Below are positions 10,261 through 16,830 of a stretch of DNA of 64,000 bases, in pieces. The position numbers and the translations under genes are program-made. Position 1 is the stretch's first letter; the number at the start of each line of letters is the position of its first letter. The stretch lies in the NCBI GenBank assembly GCA_964449195.1, contig CAYUYL010000001.1:289-64288 (forward strand), in the 5' to 3' direction. This DNA is from an uncultured Filomicrobium sp. (GTDB lineage Bacteria > Pseudomonadota > Alphaproteobacteria > Rhizobiales > Hyphomicrobiaceae). The notes under the pieces were generated by a model. It was not told the DNA's origin and searched no databases. It saw only the letters and a list, made by a program, of their open reading frames with translations.

Positions 10261-11475
10261 TCAACTTCGGCGTGGAAAAAGGCGCGCATCCTGTGGTGTC
10301 GGATCGGCTGGTAATTTGGCCCTTTCAGCTTCATCAATGGCTTCTGCAATCAGCGCATCAAGCAGATCGGCAAACAGCAACGGCTGTTCACCGAAAGCCT
10401 CCCAGAGAAAATAACCAAAAGACCCGGGGCAAGGATTGACCTCATTCAGCCAGACCTCACCCGTTGCCTCGTTCCCGATAAAGTCAATCCGTGGCGCACC
10501 GCTGCCACCAACTGTCTCGAAGGCAATCTCAGCCCATGTCCGAATCTGATCCTCACGGCCATCTGGCAGTTGCGGATTAAGCTCACGCGTCAACGACAGC
10601 ATACCCTGGCTTGCTGACTGCCCCGGCGCTTTGCTGCCGCCGTTTTTCTTCACACCACCTGACAAATACTTTTGTTTGAAGTCAAGAAGTTCACTCGAAC
10701 GCTTCGGCCTTTCGATGGCGGACGTACGTACACCGCCAAAAGCTTTAGCAACGGCGATATTATATTCCACCATATTATCAACAAACGGTTCCAAAATCGC
10801 AGCTGTATCGTATTTGAAGATCTCAGGCAACACATCTGAGATCTCCTGCAGGCTTTCTGCACGTGCTACGCCGATACTGCTGCCAAGATGGCTTGGCTTC
10901 ACACACCAAGGGCCGGAAAAATCGCCAATGCATTCTGCTAACTCTGCCTCGGTAAGAAGCAGGCCTTCCAGCGGACGGCGAATTTCCCGATATGGCAGCA
11001 CAGGAATGTCCGTGCTGCCCAAAATACGTTTAGTCGCAACTTTGTCCATCAGCACCGCCGATGCCATTGTCCGCATGCCCGTGTAGGGAATGCCGGCCGC
11101 TTCAAAGGTCCCCTGGATTTGACCATCTTCACCGATCAGACCGTGAAATGCCGGCAGGGCTATATCAAACTCAAATTCAGCCGGACGGCGTAAAAGTGAT
11201 GCATGACGCCCAATCAGAGCTGCCCTGCCCGATGCCGTCATATCGAGTGTCACCTGCGTCAGCTGCGCGAATTGATCAGGCCCTGGCAGATATGTCTCAC
11301 GATCGCGCAAGCCATCACCACACCACCATGACCCGTTGGTGGCTAGGTAAACCGGCAGCACATCATAGACATCTGGGTCGAGGGCCGCCATGACCTGCTG
11401 CGCGGTTACCACGCTGACGTCATGCTCGGGCGAACGCCCACCGAAGAAAACTGCAATTGTTTTTTTGCCTGCCAT
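10261..11475 (-). CDS. D-alanine--D-alanine ligase family ATP-grasp protein (long form, 404 aa)
   Basis: N-terminal IAVFFGGRSPEHDVSVVTA. ATP-grasp core VKPSHLGSSIGV... and RIDFIG...WLNEVNPCPG. It has an extended Gly/Ser/Lys-rich insert after the KY motif. Confidence 0.85.
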   Translation of the reverse strand: MAGKKTIAVFFGGRSPEHDVSVVTAQQVMAALDPDVYDVLPVYLATNGSWWCGDGLRDRETYLPGPDQFAQLTQVTLDMTASGRAALIGRHASLLRRPAEFEFDIALPAFHGLIGEDGQIQGTFEAAGIPYTGMRTMASAVLMDKVATKRILGSTDIPVLPYREIRRPLEGLLLTEAELAECIGDFSGPWCVKPSHLGSSIGVARAESLQEISDVLPEIFKYDTAAILEPFVDNMVEYNIAVAKAFGGVRTSAIERPKRSSELLDFKQKYLSGGVKKNGGSKAPGQSASQGMLSLTRELNPQLPDGREDQIRTWAEIAFETVGGSGAPRIDFIGNEATGEVWLNEVNPCPGSFGYFLWEAFGEQPLLFADLLDALIAEAIDEAERAKLPADPTPQDARLFPRRS

Positions 11476-11693
11476 ACCTGCCTGCTGTCTGTTTGCTTCG
11501 TACGGTTTACACGTTAGCTCTGTTGATATTTAACATGTGACAAACGTCAATAGACCTTGGATCTTTTTAACATTCATCGTGCGAGAGCTGGTGAGCGGAA
11601 ATTACCAAGCCATTCATGCATTCCACAAGACAAAAGCGAGCCTGCAGCAATTGTAAGCTTGCATGAATGCGCCGTAGACGGGATAAGGCCATC

Positions 11694-12488
11694 ATGCAAC
11701 TCGAAAATTACGACATCACGCAATTTGCGCACGATACACAGGCTGGGCCACAGACAGGCAGCCAATGGCGCTTTGTATGGGGACACGGCTGGGGACAGAA
11801 CCGGCACGCGATGGCTGGTTTGGCGCAGTCGCTGGCATCACTTGGCAGCCATGTCCTCTTCGACTTTCCAGGATTTGGGGAATCTCCTACACCCGATACC
11901 CCGTGGACAACAGCCGACTACGCTGATCTTGTGGCTTTGTATCTTAATGCAAATCTGCATGCCGGGCCAACCGTCTGGCTCGGCCATTCCTTCGGCGGCC
12001 GTGTCGGCATTCAGCTTGCCGCACGCCATCCTGAACTTGTTGACAAACTCGTACTCATTGCCGCAGCCGGACTGCCACGCCAACGCTCTTTGATTGATGG
12101 TGCGAGGGTCAAATCCAAAATCTACACATTCAAGGCGCTCAAGCATCTCGCGCCTGTTCTTAAACTCGATGTTGACAAACTACGTAGCCGGTTCGGCAGT
12201 ACTGATTACAAAAGTGCCGGCGACATGCGCGAAATCCTTGCCAACGTTGTGCGGGAAGATCTCAGTGACGCCGCGAAGCAAATCACCTGCCCAACACGCC
12301 TGATCTACGGTGAAAAGGATTCTGAAACGCCCCCGGAAATTGGAGAGCGCCTCGCCAAATTTATCATCAACGCCGACTTGAGCGTTCTTCCCGGCCAGGA
12401 TCATTACTCACTTCTCGGAGAAGGCCGGCATCAAGTTGCCAAGCGCATTCGCGATTTCCTCGCACATGGTGAGAAGCAGGCGGTATAA
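11694..12488 (+). CDS. alpha/beta-fold hydrolase
   Basis: ORF 11667..12488. The likely start is MQLENYD at 11694. It has the nucleophile elbow WLGHSFGG (G-x-S-x-G), a late D (GEKDSETP) and H (GQDHYSL). Confidence 0.8.
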   Translation: MQLENYDITQFAHDTQAGPQTGSQWRFVWGHGWGQNRHAMAGLAQSLASLGSHVLFDFPGFGESPTPDTPWTTADYADLVALYLNANLHAGPTVWLGHSFGGRVGIQLAARHPELVDKLVLIAAAGLPRQRSLIDGARVKSKIYTFKALKHLAPVLKLDVDKLRSRFGSTDYKSAGDMREILANVVREDLSDAAKQITCPTRLIYGEKDSETPPEIGERLAKFIINADLSVLPGQDHYSLLGEGRHQVAKRIRDFLAHGEKQAV

Positions 12489-12503
12489 ACCGGAGCCCAG
12501 TCT

Positions 12504-14105
12504 ATGGCCGAATTCCTATCCCTCGCTGCATTCGCAGCTTTTGCTTTTTTCTGCCTGCGCAGGATGCTGCGCTATTTGCACATCTTCCAGCAGGATGAAT
12601 ATGACGGCGCACGTTTCCTGCTGTGGCTGATCCAAAAAATGGCCTTTGACAAACGCATCTCTGCAGGCTTGATCCTGCTTGCTATATTCATGTTCATCAT
12701 GAAAAACGCGGTTTTTGTTTCCGCCCCTCTGGAAACAGGTTTAATTGCGCTCTTATTTACGATAGCCGGGTTCTTGGAAGCGGACCCTCGTAAAGCCGCC
12801 AAAAAGAAACTTGTGCTCACCAACCGCGCAAAGCGCATTTTCGCCACCGGCTCAGCCTTGGCGTTAGCCGCAGGTCTTATAGCGGCAATTACGGGCGGCA
12901 GCCTTGCGTGGCTTATCGCCGTGCAGGTCGTTCCGTTCGCCATGGTGATCGGCAACCGGCCTCTACAACCATTTGAAACCCGTATTCAAAAAGGATTTCA
13001 GATCGCTGCTGAAAAACGGTTGAGTGAGGTGAACCCCTGGATCATCGGCATTACAGGCTCCTTTGGCAAAACGTCGGTCAAACATATTCTCGGCCATGTT
13101 CTGCAAATGAATACAAATGCACTGTTTACCCCCGGCAGTGTGAATACCGTGATGGGGATCTCCCGCATTATCAACGAACGCCTGGCCAGCAACTGCCGCT
13201 ATTTCCTGGTTGAAATGGGCGCCTATGGCATCGGCTCCATAGCCCGTCTATGTGCGTTTACGCCACCGCACCACGGGATTATCACGTCCATCGGCGAAGC
13301 CCATTATGAGCGCTTCAAAGATCTTGAAACGGTTGCCAAGGCAAAGTTTGAACTGGCTGAAGCCGTCAGCGCTCACCGTGGCAAAGTCGTCATCGCCGAA
13401 AGCGTTCTGGACCGGGCATACGCGCGCGAGTTTGTCGAGCAAAACCGGGCCATGTTCATCCTTGTGGGCCAGGGGAATATGGCTGATGTCCAAATCTTAT
13501 CGCTGGAGCAGACAGCAGAAGGACTGCATGTCAACGTCAGGCAAGGCAACCATGAACATACACTTTTTGCGCCGCTCTACGGCTTGCATCACGGCCGCAA
13601 TATGGCGCTGGCTTATGCGCTGAGCTCTAACCTTGGTTTCACACCCGATCGCATTATTCAGGCCATGCGCACGACCCCACAAATTGCACATCGCCTTGAA
13701 GTTAAACAGCATCCCACCGGCGCTACATATATTGATGACGCATATAATGCCAATCCTGCCGGGATTTCAGGCGGCCTCGATCTTTTGCAAACCTTGCGTA
13801 AAGACGGCGGCAGACGTGTGTTCGTGACGCCAGGCGTTGTTGAGCTTGGCACAAGACACGATGAGATTCACCGTGAACTCGGGGCCAAGGCGGCACACAG
13901 CACAGATATTACGATTGCCGTGCGGCCGGATCGTATTACAGCGTTTGTCGAAGGTTTCAAAACTGCTGGCGGGAGAGGCGAACTGCTGACATTCAACCAG
14001 TTTTCAGAGGCGCAGAAATGGATCAATGAAAACCTGCAATCCAATGATGTTCTGCTGATCGCCAATGATCTGCCGGATTTACTGGAGCGCACATTCGTGA
14101 GTTAG
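12504..14105 (+). CDS. Mur ligase family protein, MurF-like, with an N-terminal polytopic membrane domain
   Basis: Residues 1 to about 165 are hydrophobic (about 4-5 predicted TM helices). Then come the Mur-ligase P-loop IGITGSFGKTSVKH, the central domain, and the MurF-like DDAYNANPAG C-terminal domain. Confidence 0.85.
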   Translation: MAEFLSLAAFAAFAFFCLRRMLRYLHIFQQDEYDGARFLLWLIQKMAFDKRISAGLILLAIFMFIMKNAVFVSAPLETGLIALLFTIAGFLEADPRKAAKKKLVLTNRAKRIFATGSALALAAGLIAAITGGSLAWLIAVQVVPFAMVIGNRPLQPFETRIQKGFQIAAEKRLSEVNPWIIGITGSFGKTSVKHILGHVLQMNTNALFTPGSVNTVMGISRIINERLASNCRYFLVEMGAYGIGSIARLCAFTPPHHGIITSIGEAHYERFKDLETVAKAKFELAEAVSAHRGKVVIAESVLDRAYAREFVEQNRAMFILVGQGNMADVQILSLEQTAEGLHVNVRQGNHEHTLFAPLYGLHHGRNMALAYALSSNLGFTPDRIIQAMRTTPQIAHRLEVKQHPTGATYIDDAYNANPAGISGGLDLLQTLRKDGGRRVFVTPGVVELGTRHDEIHRELGAKAAHSTDITIAVRPDRITAFVEGFKTAGGRGELLTFNQFSEAQKWINENLQSNDVLLIANDLPDLLERTFVS

Positions 14106-14135
14106 GCCCCTTGATCTCAATCGAGCTGGAATTGC

Positions 14136-14645
14136 ATGAGCCAGGATCAACATCACTATAAAACTGCTGAAGACAGCCGCCCCTCATCCAGACCGACACG
14201 CGTGCCTTGGCCGCCACTTCTGCTTGCAGGCGCCATAGCAGGGGCAATCATACTGCAAGAACTACTGCCGATGAACTGGCCAGGGCTTGACGATACGCCG
14301 TCGCGCATCGTTGGACTTGGCATTGGCCTTGCGGGCATCCTGCTGATATCGTGGGCTGCTTATTATCTATGCCGTGCCGGCACCACCATTCTTCCGCACA
14401 AAGGCGCAAATACACTTGTGACCGGCGGGCCTTTCACCCGCTTCCGCAACCCAATCTATTTGGGAGACGTCATGATTTTGCTCGGCACAGCCGAACTCAC
14501 TAAAAATATTTGGTTTGTTGCAGCCGCCGCCGTTTTCGCCATCATCGTGACATTTCTTGCTATTCTACCGGAAGAGCATCACTTGGCAGAAAAGTTTGGA
14601 AATGAATATAAAGCCTATAAAGCCCGTAGCCGCCGATGGATTTAG
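14136..14645 (+). CDS. ICMT/PEMT-like membrane methyltransferase family protein
   Basis: Four hydrophobic segments and the GGPFTRFRNPIYLGD...LPEEHHLAEKFGNEY signature of isoprenylcysteine carboxyl / phospholipid methyltransferase-like proteins. It starts 31 nt after the Mur ligase stop. Confidence 0.8.
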   Translation: MSQDQHHYKTAEDSRPSSRPTRVPWPPLLLAGAIAGAIILQELLPMNWPGLDDTPSRIVGLGIGLAGILLISWAAYYLCRAGTTILPHKGANTLVTGGPFTRFRNPIYLGDVMILLGTAELTKNIWFVAAAAVFAIIVTFLAILPEEHHLAEKFGNEYKAYKARSRRWI

Positions 14646-14804
14646 GACGTACCTTCGGCGCCGCGTGGCAACTGGCGGCACGGCCCGAGAAAAAAACAGC
14701 ATAATATTTTGCAGTTTCAAATCATCCGACCGGGAAAGCGCCCTATTTCACCTTATCTTAGGCCTGTAACAACCGGGAAGATCCCAGGTAAAGGTAAATT
14801 AATT

Positions 14805-16157
14805 ATGGGCATTTTCTTGCAAAAGCAGCAACGATTATTAGCTTCGATTATAATTTTGGCCTCAGGGCTTTTAGTATCACCTGCGCAAGCACAAATCAGC
14901 TATACGGATCAAATTGCAGAATGGCTTGGTACGCATAATACTGGCGAGGTGAGCGGGCAAACACAGTCCACCACCTCAAATGGCTCGGCCGCAAACGCAC
15001 CAGCCACGGGCAGCCTGCCTGCTCAGCCAAAAGACACTGATCCGCGTGCTGGCGATAAAAATTACGAACAAGCCAAGCGGCTGATGAAAGCTATCGATGC
15101 TATTCTGTCCAAGACGGCAAAGGAGCGTACAGCCGCTCAAAAACTGCCATCTAAAAAGGAATTTATGCTCCCGCCCCTTTGGACGGAGACCAAAGAGGAC
15201 CGTGAGACACATATTCGAGATTTACTGGATTCTGCTCTGGGCATCGTGTCTGATGTGCCGGTTGTGGATTTGCAGAAACGCATTGAACAACGCCGCAAAA
15301 CAATTCGCGAACTTGAAGACCTGATCGCTCAGTGGCGTGAAAAGCAGCTTAGCGCACCACAAAGTTCGATTATGCCGGGTGTCGTCGCTGACACCGTCTC
15401 CAGCCTCGGCCAACAGATTATCGATGCAGAAAAACGCATAACCAAGAATCAAGAAGACATTAAAGCAACCAAAGGTGAAATTCGGTCTGCGCTGAAGAAA
15501 TCAGGTATTGAGCTATCCAGTGATCAGGTCGACCTGCTGATTGGCGGTGTTCTGTCCAGCGACCTGGTCCGTCTCGTGGCGGCGTTCAATTCGGCCAAGC
15601 TAATTGATCAGCAGCTTGGTGATCGCATGGCTGCGAGCGGTGAGAACATCAAGGCCGCGCGTAAATACTTTGCCATGCATGCAGCACTGTTTGCCATGCT
15701 TGTGCATGCGCAAGACACCGTTATTGAGAAAATCGACAAGCAGTATCTTCCCAAATTGAAAGCGATTACAAAGGATTTGCGTAAAGCACGCAAACAAACA
15801 AAGCAACTGCTTCGGCACAAAAACCGCCCGGACCAGAAGCGTATTTTAGAATCAAACCTACGCAGCCAGGACATGGCGCAACGCGCAGCACAACGCTATC
15901 GCAATTACCTGCTGCAGCAGCGCGAACAGATTGCTGTGGCGCGCAAACGCTCCGCACATGATTTATCAATTGCTGACAACACCTATTCGACCGTTGAGGT
16001 CAGCTTTCAGTTGCGCAATCTGATGAAAAGCACACAGTCAACCTTTGAAGCTCTGCAACGTATGGATTCGCCCACATTCGAGCAGATCTTCAAAAACGAA
16101 GAATTACGCCGGGAATTCGAAAACCTAACCAAAAAGCTTGAGGTGCCAACAAGTTGA
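14805..16157 (+). CDS. hypothetical secreted coiled-coil protein
   Basis: ORF 14709..16157. The likely start is MGIFLQKQQRLLASIIILASGLLVSPAQAQ at 14805 (signal peptide). The rest is Lys/Glu/Gln/Arg-rich and helical. No enzymatic motif was recognised. Confidence 0.65.
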   Translation: MGIFLQKQQRLLASIIILASGLLVSPAQAQISYTDQIAEWLGTHNTGEVSGQTQSTTSNGSAANAPATGSLPAQPKDTDPRAGDKNYEQAKRLMKAIDAILSKTAKERTAAQKLPSKKEFMLPPLWTETKEDRETHIRDLLDSALGIVSDVPVVDLQKRIEQRRKTIRELEDLIAQWREKQLSAPQSSIMPGVVADTVSSLGQQIIDAEKRITKNQEDIKATKGEIRSALKKSGIELSSDQVDLLIGGVLSSDLVRLVAAFNSAKLIDQQLGDRMAASGENIKAARKYFAMHAALFAMLVHAQDTVIEKIDKQYLPKLKAITKDLRKARKQTKQLLRHKNRPDQKRILESNLRSQDMAQRAAQRYRNYLLQQREQIAVARKRSAHDLSIADNTYSTVEVSFQLRNLMKSTQSTFEALQRMDSPTFEQIFKNEELRREFENLTKKLEVPTS

Positions 16158-16212: not shown

Positions 16213-16830
16213 TTATTGCGATGCCGCCGCAATTTCGCGAAGGTCTTTAAAATGAGCCCTTAAATATTTTCCGGGACAACTTGTGGCAGCATGATCGTTG
16301 TGAGCAGTAATCTTGTGAACAGGGATTTTATGCTTTTTGACCAGCCACACAACAAGACGATGAAGCGACGCTAACTGCCGTGCATTCGGCTTTTCGATTT
16401 CAAAATTACCTTCGAGTACGATTTGAAGGCGATTACGCGTGTCGTACCTGGTATTCGTATTGCCTGCAAAATTAACATTCAAGCCTTCCGCAATGCGGCC
16501 GCTCACACCAATGTAAAAGTGATAGGGAACATCCCCCCACGCCGGCTTGATACGGCTGCCAACTTTTCCGGTACGCTGCGAAAAAGACTGTAACCCGCGC
16601 ATTTTGCGTTCCAAAGACACCCCTGGCTGCTGCCGGACAGATGTATGATGGATAATAATTTCTCGTGGCACCTGCCGTCTTAACAGGTCTGCTCTAGCCG
16701 GTTTTGCCTTCCAATCATTACGCGACATAAGATCAGGCTGAGCAAGCACCATTCCATACGAAAAAATCAAGCATAGCACGCCAATCAACGCCAAAGCCCC
16801 ACGACGGCATAAGCAGCATCGCACCACCAC
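16213..16830 (-). CDS. N-acetylmuramoyl-L-alanine amidase (Amidase_2/PGRP fold), secreted
   Basis: N-terminal hydrophobic signal. IIIHHTS..., WGDVPYHFYIG, AHNDHAATSCPG motifs of the zinc amidase_2 family. Confidence 0.85.
   Translation of the reverse strand: MVVRCCLCRRGALALIGVLCLIFSYGMVLAQPDLMSRNDWKAKPARADLLRRQVPREIIIHHTSVRQQPGVSLERKMRGLQSFSQRTGKVGSRIKPAWGDVPYHFYIGVSGRIAEGLNVNFAGNTNTRYDTRNRLQIVLEGNFEIEKPNARQLASLHRLVVWLVKKHKIPVHKITAHNDHAATSCPGKYLRAHFKDLREIAAASQ

What the first reader, a model, noticed from the sequence alone, without database searches (positions are those of the whole stretch)
10261..14645. Divergent cluster: Ddl-like ATP-grasp ligase / alpha-beta hydrolase / membrane-anchored MurF-like ligase / ICMT-like methyltransferase, a candidate uncharacterised peptide-ligation system
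Seen: a 404-aa Ddl-family ATP-grasp gene on the minus strand faces a tightly packed plus-strand trio across about 200 bp of shared promoter space. The trio is an alpha/beta hydrolase, a Mur ligase 15 nt downstream, and a membrane methyltransferase 31 nt further on. No dcw/mur genes (mraY, murC/D/E/G, ftsW, ftsQAZ) are nearby. Established: the two amide-bond chemistries (ATP-grasp plus Mur-ligase fold) co-occur in peptidoglycan stem-peptide synthesis and inside cyanophycin synthetase (G and M domains). Membrane-anchored Mur-ligase-type enzymes include the poly-gamma-glutamate synthetase PgsB/CapB. Inference: these are probably paralogues of the housekeeping ddl/murF. They may build or attach a short (D-)amino-acid peptide on a membrane-proximal acceptor, with the hydrolase trimming or releasing it and the ICMT-like enzyme methylating a carboxylate. 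I do not know of an assigned function for this four-gene arrangement.
Basis: partly seen in the sequence, partly recalled or inferred. Interest (0 to 1): 0.72.

Follow-up and report, generated by a model that had tools for sequence, protein, structure and literature searches.

The report
Membrane-anchored MurF variant with Ddl and hydrolase
Three of the four flagged genes (a variant D-Ala-D-Ala ligase, an esterase-type hydrolase and a MurF-type ligase with membrane helices in place of its nucleotide-binding domain) form a widespread, undescribed module tied to cell-wall precursor synthesis; the methyltransferase is only a chance neighbour.

Summary
The four ORFs exist as described, but only three form a unit.

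**The trio**
- The Ddl-like gene (Ddl*), the alpha/beta hydrolase (ABH) and the membrane-anchored MurF-like gene (MurF*) are co-inherited across several phyla.
- ABH lies directly upstream of MurF* in 74/74 loci. Ddl* is divergent in 61/66.
- Starting from Ddl* in an independent collection, ABH is present in 50/53 loci and MurF* in 28/28.
- The PEMT/ICMT methyltransferase is syntenic in 0/80 loci, and is missing even in a 73%-identical relative.

**The proteins**
- Ddl* keeps the DdlB catalytic residues. It has S281F and a conserved insertion after the omega-loop.
- MurF* keeps the Mur-ligase invariants and the MurF fold. Five membrane helices with invariant cytoplasmic loops replace UDP-binding domain 1, and this module occurs in no other architecture.
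- ABH has an intact Ser-Asp-His triad.

**Link to peptidoglycan**
- 15/80 genome loci and about 17/80 metagenome loci sit inside dcw clusters: murB-[MurF*,ABH]-ddl*-ftsQAZ.
- The murE-mraY slot lacks murF in 6/6 loci that reach it.
- 18/80 loci add a VanX-type dipeptidase.

**Reading**
This is best read as a membrane-tethered branch that makes and adds the terminal dipeptide of the peptidoglycan stem. It is a new variant of a known kind. I could not test whether this genome also has canonical murF and ddl.

The parts
10261..11475 (-). Ddl*, a D-alanine-D-alanine ligase variant (404 aa) of the long DdlA-like type. It has a conserved insertion of about 25 residues after the omega-loop K-Y (motif S-[EQ]-G-M-L-S-L-T-R-E-[LI]-N-P) and F in place of DdlB S281.
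   Evidence: Pfam Dala_Dala_lig_N and _C. All NCBIfam Ddl models score below cutoff. It aligns end-to-end with solved Ddl structures. DdlB residues E15, H63, K97, K144, S150, K215, Y216, R255, D257, E270, N272, G276 and L282 are kept in 61-62 of 62 family members, while S281 is F in 56 and Y in 5. It lies divergent to ABH-MurF* in 61/66 loci.
11476..11693 (.). Divergent intergenic region between ddl* and the ABH-MurF* operon. It presumably holds both promoters.
   Evidence: Sequence read. The sigma-70 and terminator consensus scans gave no site here and were no better than shuffles. No Rfam match anywhere in the window. The promoter function is inferred only from the divergent gene arrangement.
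11667..12488 (+). ABH, a cytoplasmic alpha/beta-fold serine hydrolase of the esterase/lipase type. It is 264-273 aa depending on the start (11667 or 11694) and is the obligate partner of MurF*.
   Evidence: Pfam Abhydrolase_1/6 and Hydrolase_4. The HGW oxyanion motif, the G-H-S-x-G nucleophile, Asp in G..D..TPP and the catalytic His are invariant or nearly so across the family, along with a family-specific lid motif FGS.DY...G..R. AF2 pLDDT is 91.2. Foldseek finds only generic carboxylesterases, BioH and monoacylglycerol lipases. It lies directly upstream of MurF* on the same strand in 74/74 loci.
12504..12998 (+). N-terminal membrane module of MurF* (aa 1-165). It has five helices, N-terminus out and C-terminus in. 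Two basic cytoplasmic loops carry invariant motifs: R20, Y24-L25-H26, Q29-Q30, Y33, W41, D49; and E92, P95, K100-K101, T106, R108, R111. It replaces MurF domain 1, the UDP-binding domain.
   Evidence: Invariant columns in alignment A1. Helices H2-30, H50-69, H74-91, H107-130 and H133-176 in the AF2 model. Hydrophobicity and positive-inside analysis. The solved-MurF alignment starts only at residue ~160, which corresponds to E. coli MurF ~84. The module has 284 representatives among 1.84 billion proteins, and all full-length ones are ~520-570 aa with this same architecture.
12999..14105 (+). Catalytic core of MurF* (aa ~166-533): the Mur-ligase middle (ATP-binding) and C-terminal domains, of MurF type.
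   Evidence: Pfam Mur_ligase_M and _C. The best NCBIfam model is murF TIGR01143, at 203 bits and below its cutoff. The P-loop TGSFGKTS, E237, H267, K281, N366, R397, D411/D412 and the MurF-type DDAYNANP are invariant. The top 10 Foldseek PDB hits are all MurF, with ~370 aligned columns.

Best explanation
The unit is a three-gene module, not four. It most likely forms a membrane-tethered branch of peptidoglycan precursor synthesis that makes and attaches the terminal dipeptide of the stem peptide.

**Shown**
- Ddl* is a catalytically intact D-Ala-D-Ala-ligase-family enzyme.
- MurF* is a catalytically intact MurF-type Mur ligase. Its UDP-binding domain 1 is replaced by a five-helix membrane module with conserved, basic cytoplasmic loops.
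- ABH is an intact serine hydrolase, always encoded immediately upstream of MurF*.
- The three genes are co-inherited across phyla. They often sit in the dcw cluster and are sometimes joined by a VanX-type dipeptidase.

**Inferred**
1. Ddl* makes D-Ala-D-Ala. Because of S281F and the omega-loop insertion, the product could instead be a D-Ala-D-X variant.
2. MurF* activates the free carboxylate of a MurNAc-tripeptide precursor as an acyl phosphate and adds the dipeptide at the inner face of the membrane.
3. The acceptor is either UDP-MurNAc-tripeptide, held by the new cytoplasmic loops next to MraY, or a lipid-linked tripeptide.
4. ABH hydrolyses an ester or amide on a substrate, product or mis-made precursor, acting in editing or release. 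Its exact substrate is unknown.
5. Where present, the M15 enzyme controls the D-Ala-D-Ala pool.

**Role in different lineages**
In Micavibrio-like lineages the module probably does the housekeeping job. In this Hyphomicrobiaceae genome it is probably an accessory or alternative branch acquired as a unit.
For: **Synteny**
- ABH directly upstream of MurF* in 74/74 loci; divergent Ddl* in 61/66.
- From the Ddl* side, in an independent collection: ABH 50/53, MurF* 28/28.

**Link to peptidoglycan**
- 15/80 genome loci and ~17/80 metagenome loci are arranged murB-[MurF*,ABH]-ddl*-ftsQ-ftsA-ftsZ.
- The neighbouring genes are confirmed as murE, murB and ftsQ by NCBIfam.
- All six loci that reach murE go from murE to mraY with no murF between.
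- A VanX-type M15 dipeptidase (PF01427, 57-95 bits, above cutoff) is inserted in 18/80 loci, always between ddl* and ABH.

**Enzymes intact**
- Ddl* catalytic residues are conserved.
- MurF* keeps the Mur invariants, the MurF motif and the MurF fold.
- The ABH triad is conserved.

**Membrane module**
- It is family-specific, and its conserved loops are cytoplasmic and basic.
Against: - No biochemical or genetic data exist for any member, and I found no paper on the family.
- All NCBIfam Ddl and MurF models score below curated cutoffs.
- MurF* lacks the domain that binds UDP, so the acceptor may not be UDP-MurNAc-tripeptide.
- Ddl* S281F touches the site that holds the second D-Ala in DdlB (from my own knowledge of DdlB structures), so the product may not be D-Ala-D-Ala.
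- ABH has no obvious role in the canonical pathway.
- A dipeptidase that destroys D-Ala-D-Ala in the same operon is odd for a plain biosynthetic route.
- Absence of murF from a dcw cluster does not show absence from the genome. Related alphaproteobacterial MAGs keep a canonical murF elsewhere, next to nrdR-nusB-def.
- In the window the module is far from any dcw gene.
Confidence: 0.55

Rival explanations
1. Plain housekeeping genes. In this genome Ddl* and MurF* are the only Ddl and MurF. The module is simply an unusual form of the essential pathway, and ABH is a passenger or scaffold.
For: In Micavibrio-like dcw clusters ddl* occupies the ddlB slot, co-directional with ftsQAZ. The murF slot is filled by an unrelated 153-aa ORF in 8 loci. 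Catalytic residues are intact.
Against: - The family is patchy: at least 561 species among 185,579.
- Identity does not follow phylogeny. The window proteins are as close to Acidobacteria and Desulfobacterales (MurF* 47-50%, Ddl* 55-59%) as to alphaproteobacterial Micavibrio (46%, 55%). Canonical MurF pairs compared here are 32-41% identical. This fits lateral spread of an accessory unit.
- Labrys carries M15-ABH-MurF* with no Ddl* within 10 kb, so it probably has another Ddl.
- L063 carries a further MurF that passes the TIGR01143 cutoff right beside the module.
- Canonical murF can lie outside the dcw cluster.
Confidence: 0.2
2. A van-like editing system for the stem-peptide terminus. Ddl* makes an alternative dipeptide or depsipeptide (D-Ala-D-X). 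The VanX-type enzyme removes ordinary D-Ala-D-Ala. MurF* is the dedicated adding enzyme. The esterase-type ABH trims an ester-linked terminus or a mis-made precursor. The result is peptidoglycan with a modified terminus, for example for resistance to agents that target D-Ala-D-Ala or Ddl.
For: - A VanX-type M15 is co-operonic in 18/80 loci.
- Ddl* deviates at S281 and carries an omega-loop insertion, the region that sets second-substrate specificity in Ddl/Van ligases (the role of this region is from my own knowledge).
- ABH is esterase-like.
- Some glycopeptide-producer clusters carry a dedicated murF2 next to vanHAX (from my own knowledge, not checked here).
Against: - No VanH-type dehydrogenase, serine racemase or VanRS regulator recurs in the neighbourhood; beyond the core trio no family recurs in more than 14/80 loci.
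- Y216 is kept in 61/62 members, which in DdlB goes with D-Ala-D-Ala rather than D-Ala-D-Lac.
- M15 is absent from about 78% of genome loci, including the window.
- The carriers appear to be mostly diderm lineages (my own knowledge), for which glycopeptide resistance would have little value.
Confidence: 0.12
3. A non-peptidoglycan product. MurF* attaches the Ddl* dipeptide to a carboxylate on a membrane lipid or another envelope molecule, and ABH acts as a lipase or esterase on that molecule.
For: - The UDP-binding domain is lost and replaced by a membrane module.
- ABH resembles lipases and monoacylglycerol lipases as much as any other esterase.
- In the window, and in most loci, the module lies outside dcw clusters.
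Against: - The module is embedded in the dcw cluster in about 20% of loci, with ddl* in the ddlB slot.
- A VanX-type dipeptidase is associated with it.
- The core is MurF-type rather than CapB-, FolC- or CphA-type.
- No lipid-synthesis gene recurs nearby.
Confidence: 0.1

Closest known systems
MurF (UDP-MurNAc-tripeptide:D-Ala-D-Ala ligase; TIGR01143; e.g. PDB 1GG4, 4CVK, 4QF5)
   Same: - Same middle and C-terminal domains and the same fold; the top 10 Foldseek hits are all MurF.
- Mur-ligase invariants and the MurF-type DDxYNANP motif are kept.
- It is genomically paired with a Ddl.
   Different: - Domain 1, which binds UDP, is missing and replaced by a five-helix membrane module with its own invariant motifs.
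- It scores 203 against the 288.6 cutoff.
- It is never located at murE-murF-mraY.
- It is always translationally adjacent to an alpha/beta hydrolase.
DdlA/DdlB D-alanine-D-alanine ligases (e.g. PDB 2I87, 2DLN)
   Same: Both Pfam domains are present. It aligns end-to-end with solved Ddl, and all the catalytic residues tested are conserved. In some lineages it occupies the ddlB slot of the dcw cluster.
   Different: - It has a conserved insertion of about 25 residues after the omega-loop K-Y.
- S281 is replaced by F or Y.
- It scores below every NCBIfam Ddl cutoff.
- In the loci examined, members at or above 50% identity were almost never found without ABH-MurF*.
vanHAX-type clusters (Ddl variant plus VanX dipeptidase, sometimes with a dedicated murF)
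   Same: It combines a variant Ddl with a VanX-family M15 dipeptidase (in 18/80 loci) and a dedicated MurF-type ligase.
   Different: There is no VanH, VanT or VanRS. Y216 is retained. M15 is optional and is absent from the window. The MurF is membrane-anchored, and an alpha/beta hydrolase is obligatory.
MurT/GatD (a Mur-ligase-family enzyme acting on lipid II)
   Same: It is a precedent for a Mur-ligase-fold enzyme that works on a membrane-bound precursor rather than a UDP-linked one (PMC6113224, seen only as title and abstract).
   Different: No MurT-type model is among the NCBIfam hits of MurF*, and I saw no GatD-like glutaminase partner in the neighbourhoods examined. MurT is soluble, while MurF* is itself membrane-embedded and clearly of MurF type.
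PgsB/CapB poly-gamma-glutamate synthetase and cyanophycin synthetase
   Same: PgsB/CapB is a membrane-anchored Mur-type ligase. CphA combines ATP-grasp and Mur-type chemistry.
   Different: No PgsB/CapB or cyanophycin-synthetase model is among the NCBIfam hits (E <= 0.01) of MurF*. No PgsC/PgsA-like partner was seen among the recurrent neighbours. The ATP-grasp partner is a true Ddl, not a CphA G-domain.

Membership tests
MurF (TIGR01143 / canonical D-Ala-D-Ala-adding enzyme) | Mur_ligase_M and Mur_ligase_C domains with the Mur-ligase invariant residues | tested here: met
   Pfam E 9e-30 and 6e-11. The P-loop, E237, H267, K281, N366, R397 and D411/412 are invariant.
MurF (TIGR01143 / canonical D-Ala-D-Ala-adding enzyme) | N-terminal domain 1 (PF01225-type) that binds the UDP moiety | tested here: not met
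   No PF01225 hit. Alignment to solved MurF starts at query residue ~160, which is E. coli residue ~84. Residues 1-165 are five membrane helices.
MurF (TIGR01143 / canonical D-Ala-D-Ala-adding enzyme) | Score above the curated family cutoff | tested here: not met
   203 bits against a cutoff of 288.6. The equivalog models score 103-162 against 544-1023.
MurF (TIGR01143 / canonical D-Ala-D-Ala-adding enzyme) | MurF is the closest fold among Mur ligases | tested here: met
   Foldseek ranks 1-10 are all MurF, E 6e-20 to 2e-17.
MurF (TIGR01143 / canonical D-Ala-D-Ala-adding enzyme) | Catalyses addition of D-Ala-D-Ala to UDP-MurNAc-tripeptide | not testable with these tools
   This needs an enzyme assay or complementation of a murF(ts) mutant.
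D-alanine-D-alanine ligase (Ddl) | Dala_Dala_lig_N and _C domains with the DdlB catalytic residues (E15, S150, K215, Y216, R255, D257, E270, N272) | tested here: met
   Pfam hits. The residues are conserved in 61-62 of 62 members.
D-alanine-D-alanine ligase (Ddl) | Residue equivalent to DdlB S281 at the second-substrate site | tested here: not met
   F in 56 members, Y in 5 and I in 1 of 62.
D-alanine-D-alanine ligase (Ddl) | Score above a curated NCBIfam Ddl cutoff | tested here: not met
   The best scores are 218 against 262 and 215 against 245.65.
D-alanine-D-alanine ligase (Ddl) | Position in the dcw cluster between murB and ftsQ | tested here: inconclusive
   Met in 15/80 genome loci and ~17/80 metagenome loci. 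Not met in the window.
vanHAX-type resistance cluster | A VanX-type dipeptidase, a VanH dehydrogenase (or VanT racemase) and a ligase with an altered omega-loop Tyr | tested here: not met
   A VanX-type M15 occurs in only 18/80 loci and not in the window. No VanH or VanT was seen among the recurrent neighbours. Y216 is retained.
PgsB/CapB or cyanophycin synthetase | Match to the family model and presence of the partner genes or the fused G-domain | tested here: not met
   No such model is among the NCBIfam hits (E <= 0.01) of MurF*. No PgsC/PgsA-like partner was seen among the recurrent neighbours.
   0/80 loci by tblastn at E <= 1e-5. It is absent in the 73%-identical relative and in L001, L002 and L004.
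Alpha/beta-fold serine hydrolase | Nucleophile elbow G-x-S-x-G, acid and His triad, and oxyanion HG motif | tested here: met
   HGW, GHSFGG, D209 and H237 are invariant in A2 and in 78 loci. The fold is confirmed.

The most novel reading that the evidence does not exclude
MurF* does not use a UDP-linked acceptor at all. Its membrane module and basic cytoplasmic loops bind undecaprenyl-pyrophosphate-linked MurNAc-tripeptide (lipid I/II-tripeptide), so the D-Ala-D-Ala is added after MraY. In lineages whose dcw cluster lacks murF (Micavibrio-like), this would be the main route. That would reorder the textbook peptidoglycan pathway, with ABH as a lipid-linked precursor editing enzyme.
Probability: 0.12. 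Interest if true: 0.9.

Novelty: new variant of a known kind. Interest (0 to 1): 0.68.

Why it matters
MurF and Ddl catalyse essential steps of bacterial cell-wall synthesis that have been studied in depth and are drug targets, and MurF is treated as a soluble enzyme that recognises UDP.

This family keeps the MurF chemistry but swaps the nucleotide-binding domain for a membrane module. It is always paired with a serine hydrolase and a signature Ddl, and at least 561 species in several phyla carry it. In some lineages it appears to stand in for the canonical genes inside the dcw cluster.

If confirmed, it would reveal one of two things. One is an unrecognised way of organising the last cytoplasmic step of precursor synthesis at the membrane. 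The other is a new stem-peptide editing or salvage branch. Either way, it would flag many genome annotations ('MurF', 'pimeloyl-ACP methyl ester carboxylesterase') as misleading.

Tried and rejected
1. **Methyltransferase, 482-aa protein and Amidase_2 as system members.** Rejected: 0/80 syntenic.
2. **Cross-matching contig lengths** to prove that a canonical MurF coexists on module-bearing contigs. No matches appeared among the 120 hits listed, so this is uninformative.
3. **The L063 'canonical' MurF as proof of a housekeeping copy.** Weakened: that clade is itself an unusual paralogue, always paired with a tandem double-Ddl fusion.
4. **Absence of murF from the dcw cluster as proof of replacement.** Weakened, where a canonical murF lies outside the dcw cluster in related MAGs.
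5. **Plasmid search.** No family member is on any of 72,556 plasmids.
6. **Rfam and promoter/terminator scans.** Nothing above chance.
7. **Fold and sequence searches for a specific function of ABH.** Only generic esterases were found.
8. **Other architectures of the N-terminal module.** None found.
9. **Apparent similarity of the E-x-D-P-R...KKLVLT loop to the MurF/MurE 'DSR' uridine-binding motif.** I considered it, but D and R are not invariant in the family, so I treat it as chance.
10. **Literature.** Six full-text searches and two papers read gave no description of the family. One older paper on amidoligases (PMC3268129) is not held.
11. **My first guess that DdlB S150 was replaced.** It came from misplacing the residue by eye, and the alignment corrected it.

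Full report
**1. Observation**

- a 404-aa Ddl-family gene on the minus strand (10261-11475)
- an alpha/beta hydrolase (11667-12488; gene callers start it at 11694)
- a 533-aa Mur ligase (12504-14105)
- a 169-aa PEMT/ICMT-type methyltransferase (14136-14645)

The gaps between them are about 191-218 bp, 15 nt and 30 nt. Pfam and NCBIfam confirm the families. Every curated Ddl and MurF model scores below its cutoff: Ddl 218 against 262, and murF TIGR01143 203 against 288.6. The ORF list of the window showed no dcw cluster, but I annotated only the ORFs around the finding. There are no Rfam matches.

**2. The real unit is three genes**

The MurF-like protein (MurF*) belongs to a large family of constant length, about 530 aa. 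A scan of one genome per species found relatives in at least 561 species. These include Hyphomicrobiaceae, Stellaceae, Acidobacteriaceae, Terriglobia, Bryobacteraceae, Desulfobacterales, Lacipirellulaceae, Micavibrio, Pseudobdellovibrionaceae and cultured Labrys.

| Test | Collection | Result |
|---|---|---|
| Hydrolase (ABH) directly upstream of MurF*, same strand | genomes | 74/74 loci with room |
| Ddl-like gene (Ddl*) divergent within 2.5 kb | genomes | 61/66 |
| Methyltransferase, 482-aa protein or Amidase_2 nearby | genomes | 0/80 |
| Divergent ABH, starting from Ddl* | JGI metagenomes | 50/53 |
| Divergent MurF*, starting from Ddl* | JGI metagenomes | 28/28 |

The closest relative with flanks (73% identity) has the trio, followed by an SH3 gene on the other strand. 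Beyond the trio, no gene family recurs in more than 14/80 loci. No copy is on a plasmid.

**3. Anatomy of the three proteins**

*Ddl\**
- It aligns end-to-end with solved Ddl structures.
- It keeps DdlB residues E15, H63, K97, K144, S150, K215, Y216, R255, D257, E270, N272, G276 and L282 in 61-62 of 62 members.
- It has F or Y for S281, and a conserved insertion of about 25 residues (…S-E/Q-G-M-L-S-L-T-R-E-L/I-N-P) just after the omega-loop K-Y.

*MurF\**
- It aligns to solved MurF only from residue ~160, which matches E. coli MurF ~84. Domain 1, the UDP-binding domain, is therefore missing.
- The core keeps the P-loop, E237, H267, K281, N366, R397, D411/412 and the MurF-type DDAYNANP.
- The AF2 model is confident (pLDDT 85.5, pTM 0.75), and its ten best PDB matches are all MurF.
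- Residues 1-165 form five membrane helices, N-terminus out and C-terminus in. The periplasmic loops are 3-4 residues long. Two basic cytoplasmic loops carry invariant motifs: R-Y-L-H-x-x-Q-Q-x-x-Y, and E-x-x-P-x(4)-K-K-x-L-x-x-T-x-R-x-x-R.
- This module has 284 representatives in 1.84 billion proteins and is never found in another architecture.

*ABH*
- It has an invariant HGW oxyanion motif, a GHSxG nucleophile, the Asp and His of the triad, and a family-specific lid motif.
- Its model (pLDDT 91.2) matches only generic carboxylesterases, BioH and monoacylglycerol lipases.
- Its best sequence match to a solved structure is 47 bits.

**4. Link to peptidoglycan**

- In 15/80 genome loci (Micavibrio-like and Pseudobdellovibrionaceae-labelled MAGs) and about 17/80 metagenome loci, the trio sits inside the dcw cluster: ftsW-murG-murC-murB-[MurF*,ABH on the opposite strand]-ddl*-ftsQ-ftsA-ftsZ. 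NCBIfam confirms murE, murB and ftsQ in L078.
- In all six loci that reach murE, murE is followed by 450-540 bp and then mraY, with no murF between. That slot holds a conserved ~153-aa ORF with no Pfam match.
- In 18/80 loci a cytoplasmic VanX-type M15 dipeptidase lies between ddl* and ABH. It hits PF01427 at 57-95 bits, and the WDAYRP, H-x-x-G-x-A-x-D and EFWHFD motifs are visible. Labrys has M15-ABH-MurF* without Ddl*.

**5. Housekeeping or accessory?**

I could not settle this. The window comes from an uncultured organism, and I had no whole-genome access.

For a housekeeping role, at least in Micavibrio-like lineages:
- ddl* sits in the ddlB slot.
- The murF slot is empty.

Against generalising that:
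- Canonical murF lies outside the dcw cluster in related alphaproteobacterial MAGs, next to nrdR-nusB-def.
- The family is patchy.
- Identity does not follow phylogeny. The window proteins are as close to Acidobacteria and Desulfobacterales (MurF* 47-50%, Ddl* 55-59%, ABH 47-54%) as to alphaproteobacterial Micavibrio, while the canonical MurF pairs compared here are 32-41% identical. This points to lateral spread of the unit.
- L063 carries another MurF above the TIGR01143 cutoff beside the module, although that clade is itself unusual.

**6. Mechanism**

*Shown:* three intact enzymes, strict co-inheritance, a membrane-tethered MurF core facing the cytoplasm, and recurrent association with the dcw cluster and a VanX-type dipeptidase.

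*Inferred:*
- Ddl* makes D-Ala-D-Ala, or a D-Ala-D-X variant given S281F and the insertion.
- MurF* adds it to the free carboxylate of a MurNAc-tripeptide precursor at the membrane surface.
- The new cytoplasmic loops replace domain 1 in holding the diphosphate-bearing part of the acceptor, whether UDP- or undecaprenyl-PP-linked.
- ABH hydrolyses an ester or amide on a substrate, product or mis-made precursor.
- M15 tunes the dipeptide pool.

I put about 0.55 on this peptidoglycan terminal-dipeptide reading.

| Alternative | Confidence |
|---|---|
| Sole housekeeping copies in this genome | ~0.2 |
| van-like terminus editing | ~0.12 |
| Non-peptidoglycan acceptor | ~0.1 |

**7. Comparison and novelty**

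MurF* works like MurF but fails two defining tests for membership: it has no domain 1 and it scores below the cutoff. Ddl* is a Ddl-family enzyme with a deviant second-substrate site. The PgsB/CapB and cyanophycin analogies are not supported. MurT/GatD is the nearest precedent for a Mur-fold enzyme acting on a lipid-linked precursor (PMC6113224, seen as title and abstract).

Six full-text searches found no description of the family. Source annotations are automated guesses such as 'MurF', 'Mur ligase family protein' and 'pimeloyl-ACP methyl ester carboxylesterase'.

**Verdict:** a real, widespread, uncharacterised three-gene module. It is a new variant of a known kind, with an interest score of about 0.68.

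Noticed in passing
L078 19475-19933 (-); also L034, L048, L065, L068, L075, L080, L082: In Micavibrio-like dcw clusters the slot between murE and mraY, where murF normally sits, holds a conserved ~153-aa ORF (32-80% identity among 8 loci). It has no Pfam match.
   Followed up: partly
L086 7573-11437; L087 7568-11407; L063 4473-8305: A small clade of MurF proteins (P0121-P0137) is always preceded by a tandem double-Ddl fusion of about 806 aa (Ddl_N-Ddl_C-Ddl_N-Ddl_C). In L063 this pair lies directly upstream of M15-ABH-MurF*. It looks like a separate unusual Ddl/MurF pairing.
   Followed up: partly
L171 10001-11323; L172 10001-11317: In some alphaproteobacterial MAGs the canonical 440-aa murF (with PF01225) is not in a dcw cluster. 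It lies in a conserved murF-nrdR-nusB-def arrangement.
   Followed up: no
window 14136-14645 (+), 14709-16157 (+), 16213-16830 (-): Three genes lie downstream of the module: a PEMT/ICMT-type membrane methyltransferase 30 nt away, a 482-aa protein with no Pfam match (gene callers give 450 aa), and an Amidase_2 (N-acetylmuramoyl-L-alanine amidase family) gene. None is syntenic with the module elsewhere, but two are envelope-related.
   Followed up: partly
L038 3199-5164: In a Desulfobacterales MAG an AAA_21 (AbiEii-type ATPase) plus RloB gene pair is inserted between MurF* and Ddl*. Here Ddl* lies downstream on the same strand.
   Followed up: no
L041 7602-11532: In a Lacipirellulaceae MAG the Ddl* match is broken into several short pieces, and the ABH and MurF* matches are partial. 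This suggests a decaying copy of the module.
   Followed up: no
L074 7540-8310: In Labrys okinawensis an IS200-like (Y1_Tnp) gene sits immediately upstream of M15-ABH-MurF*, where Ddl* would be expected.
   Followed up: no
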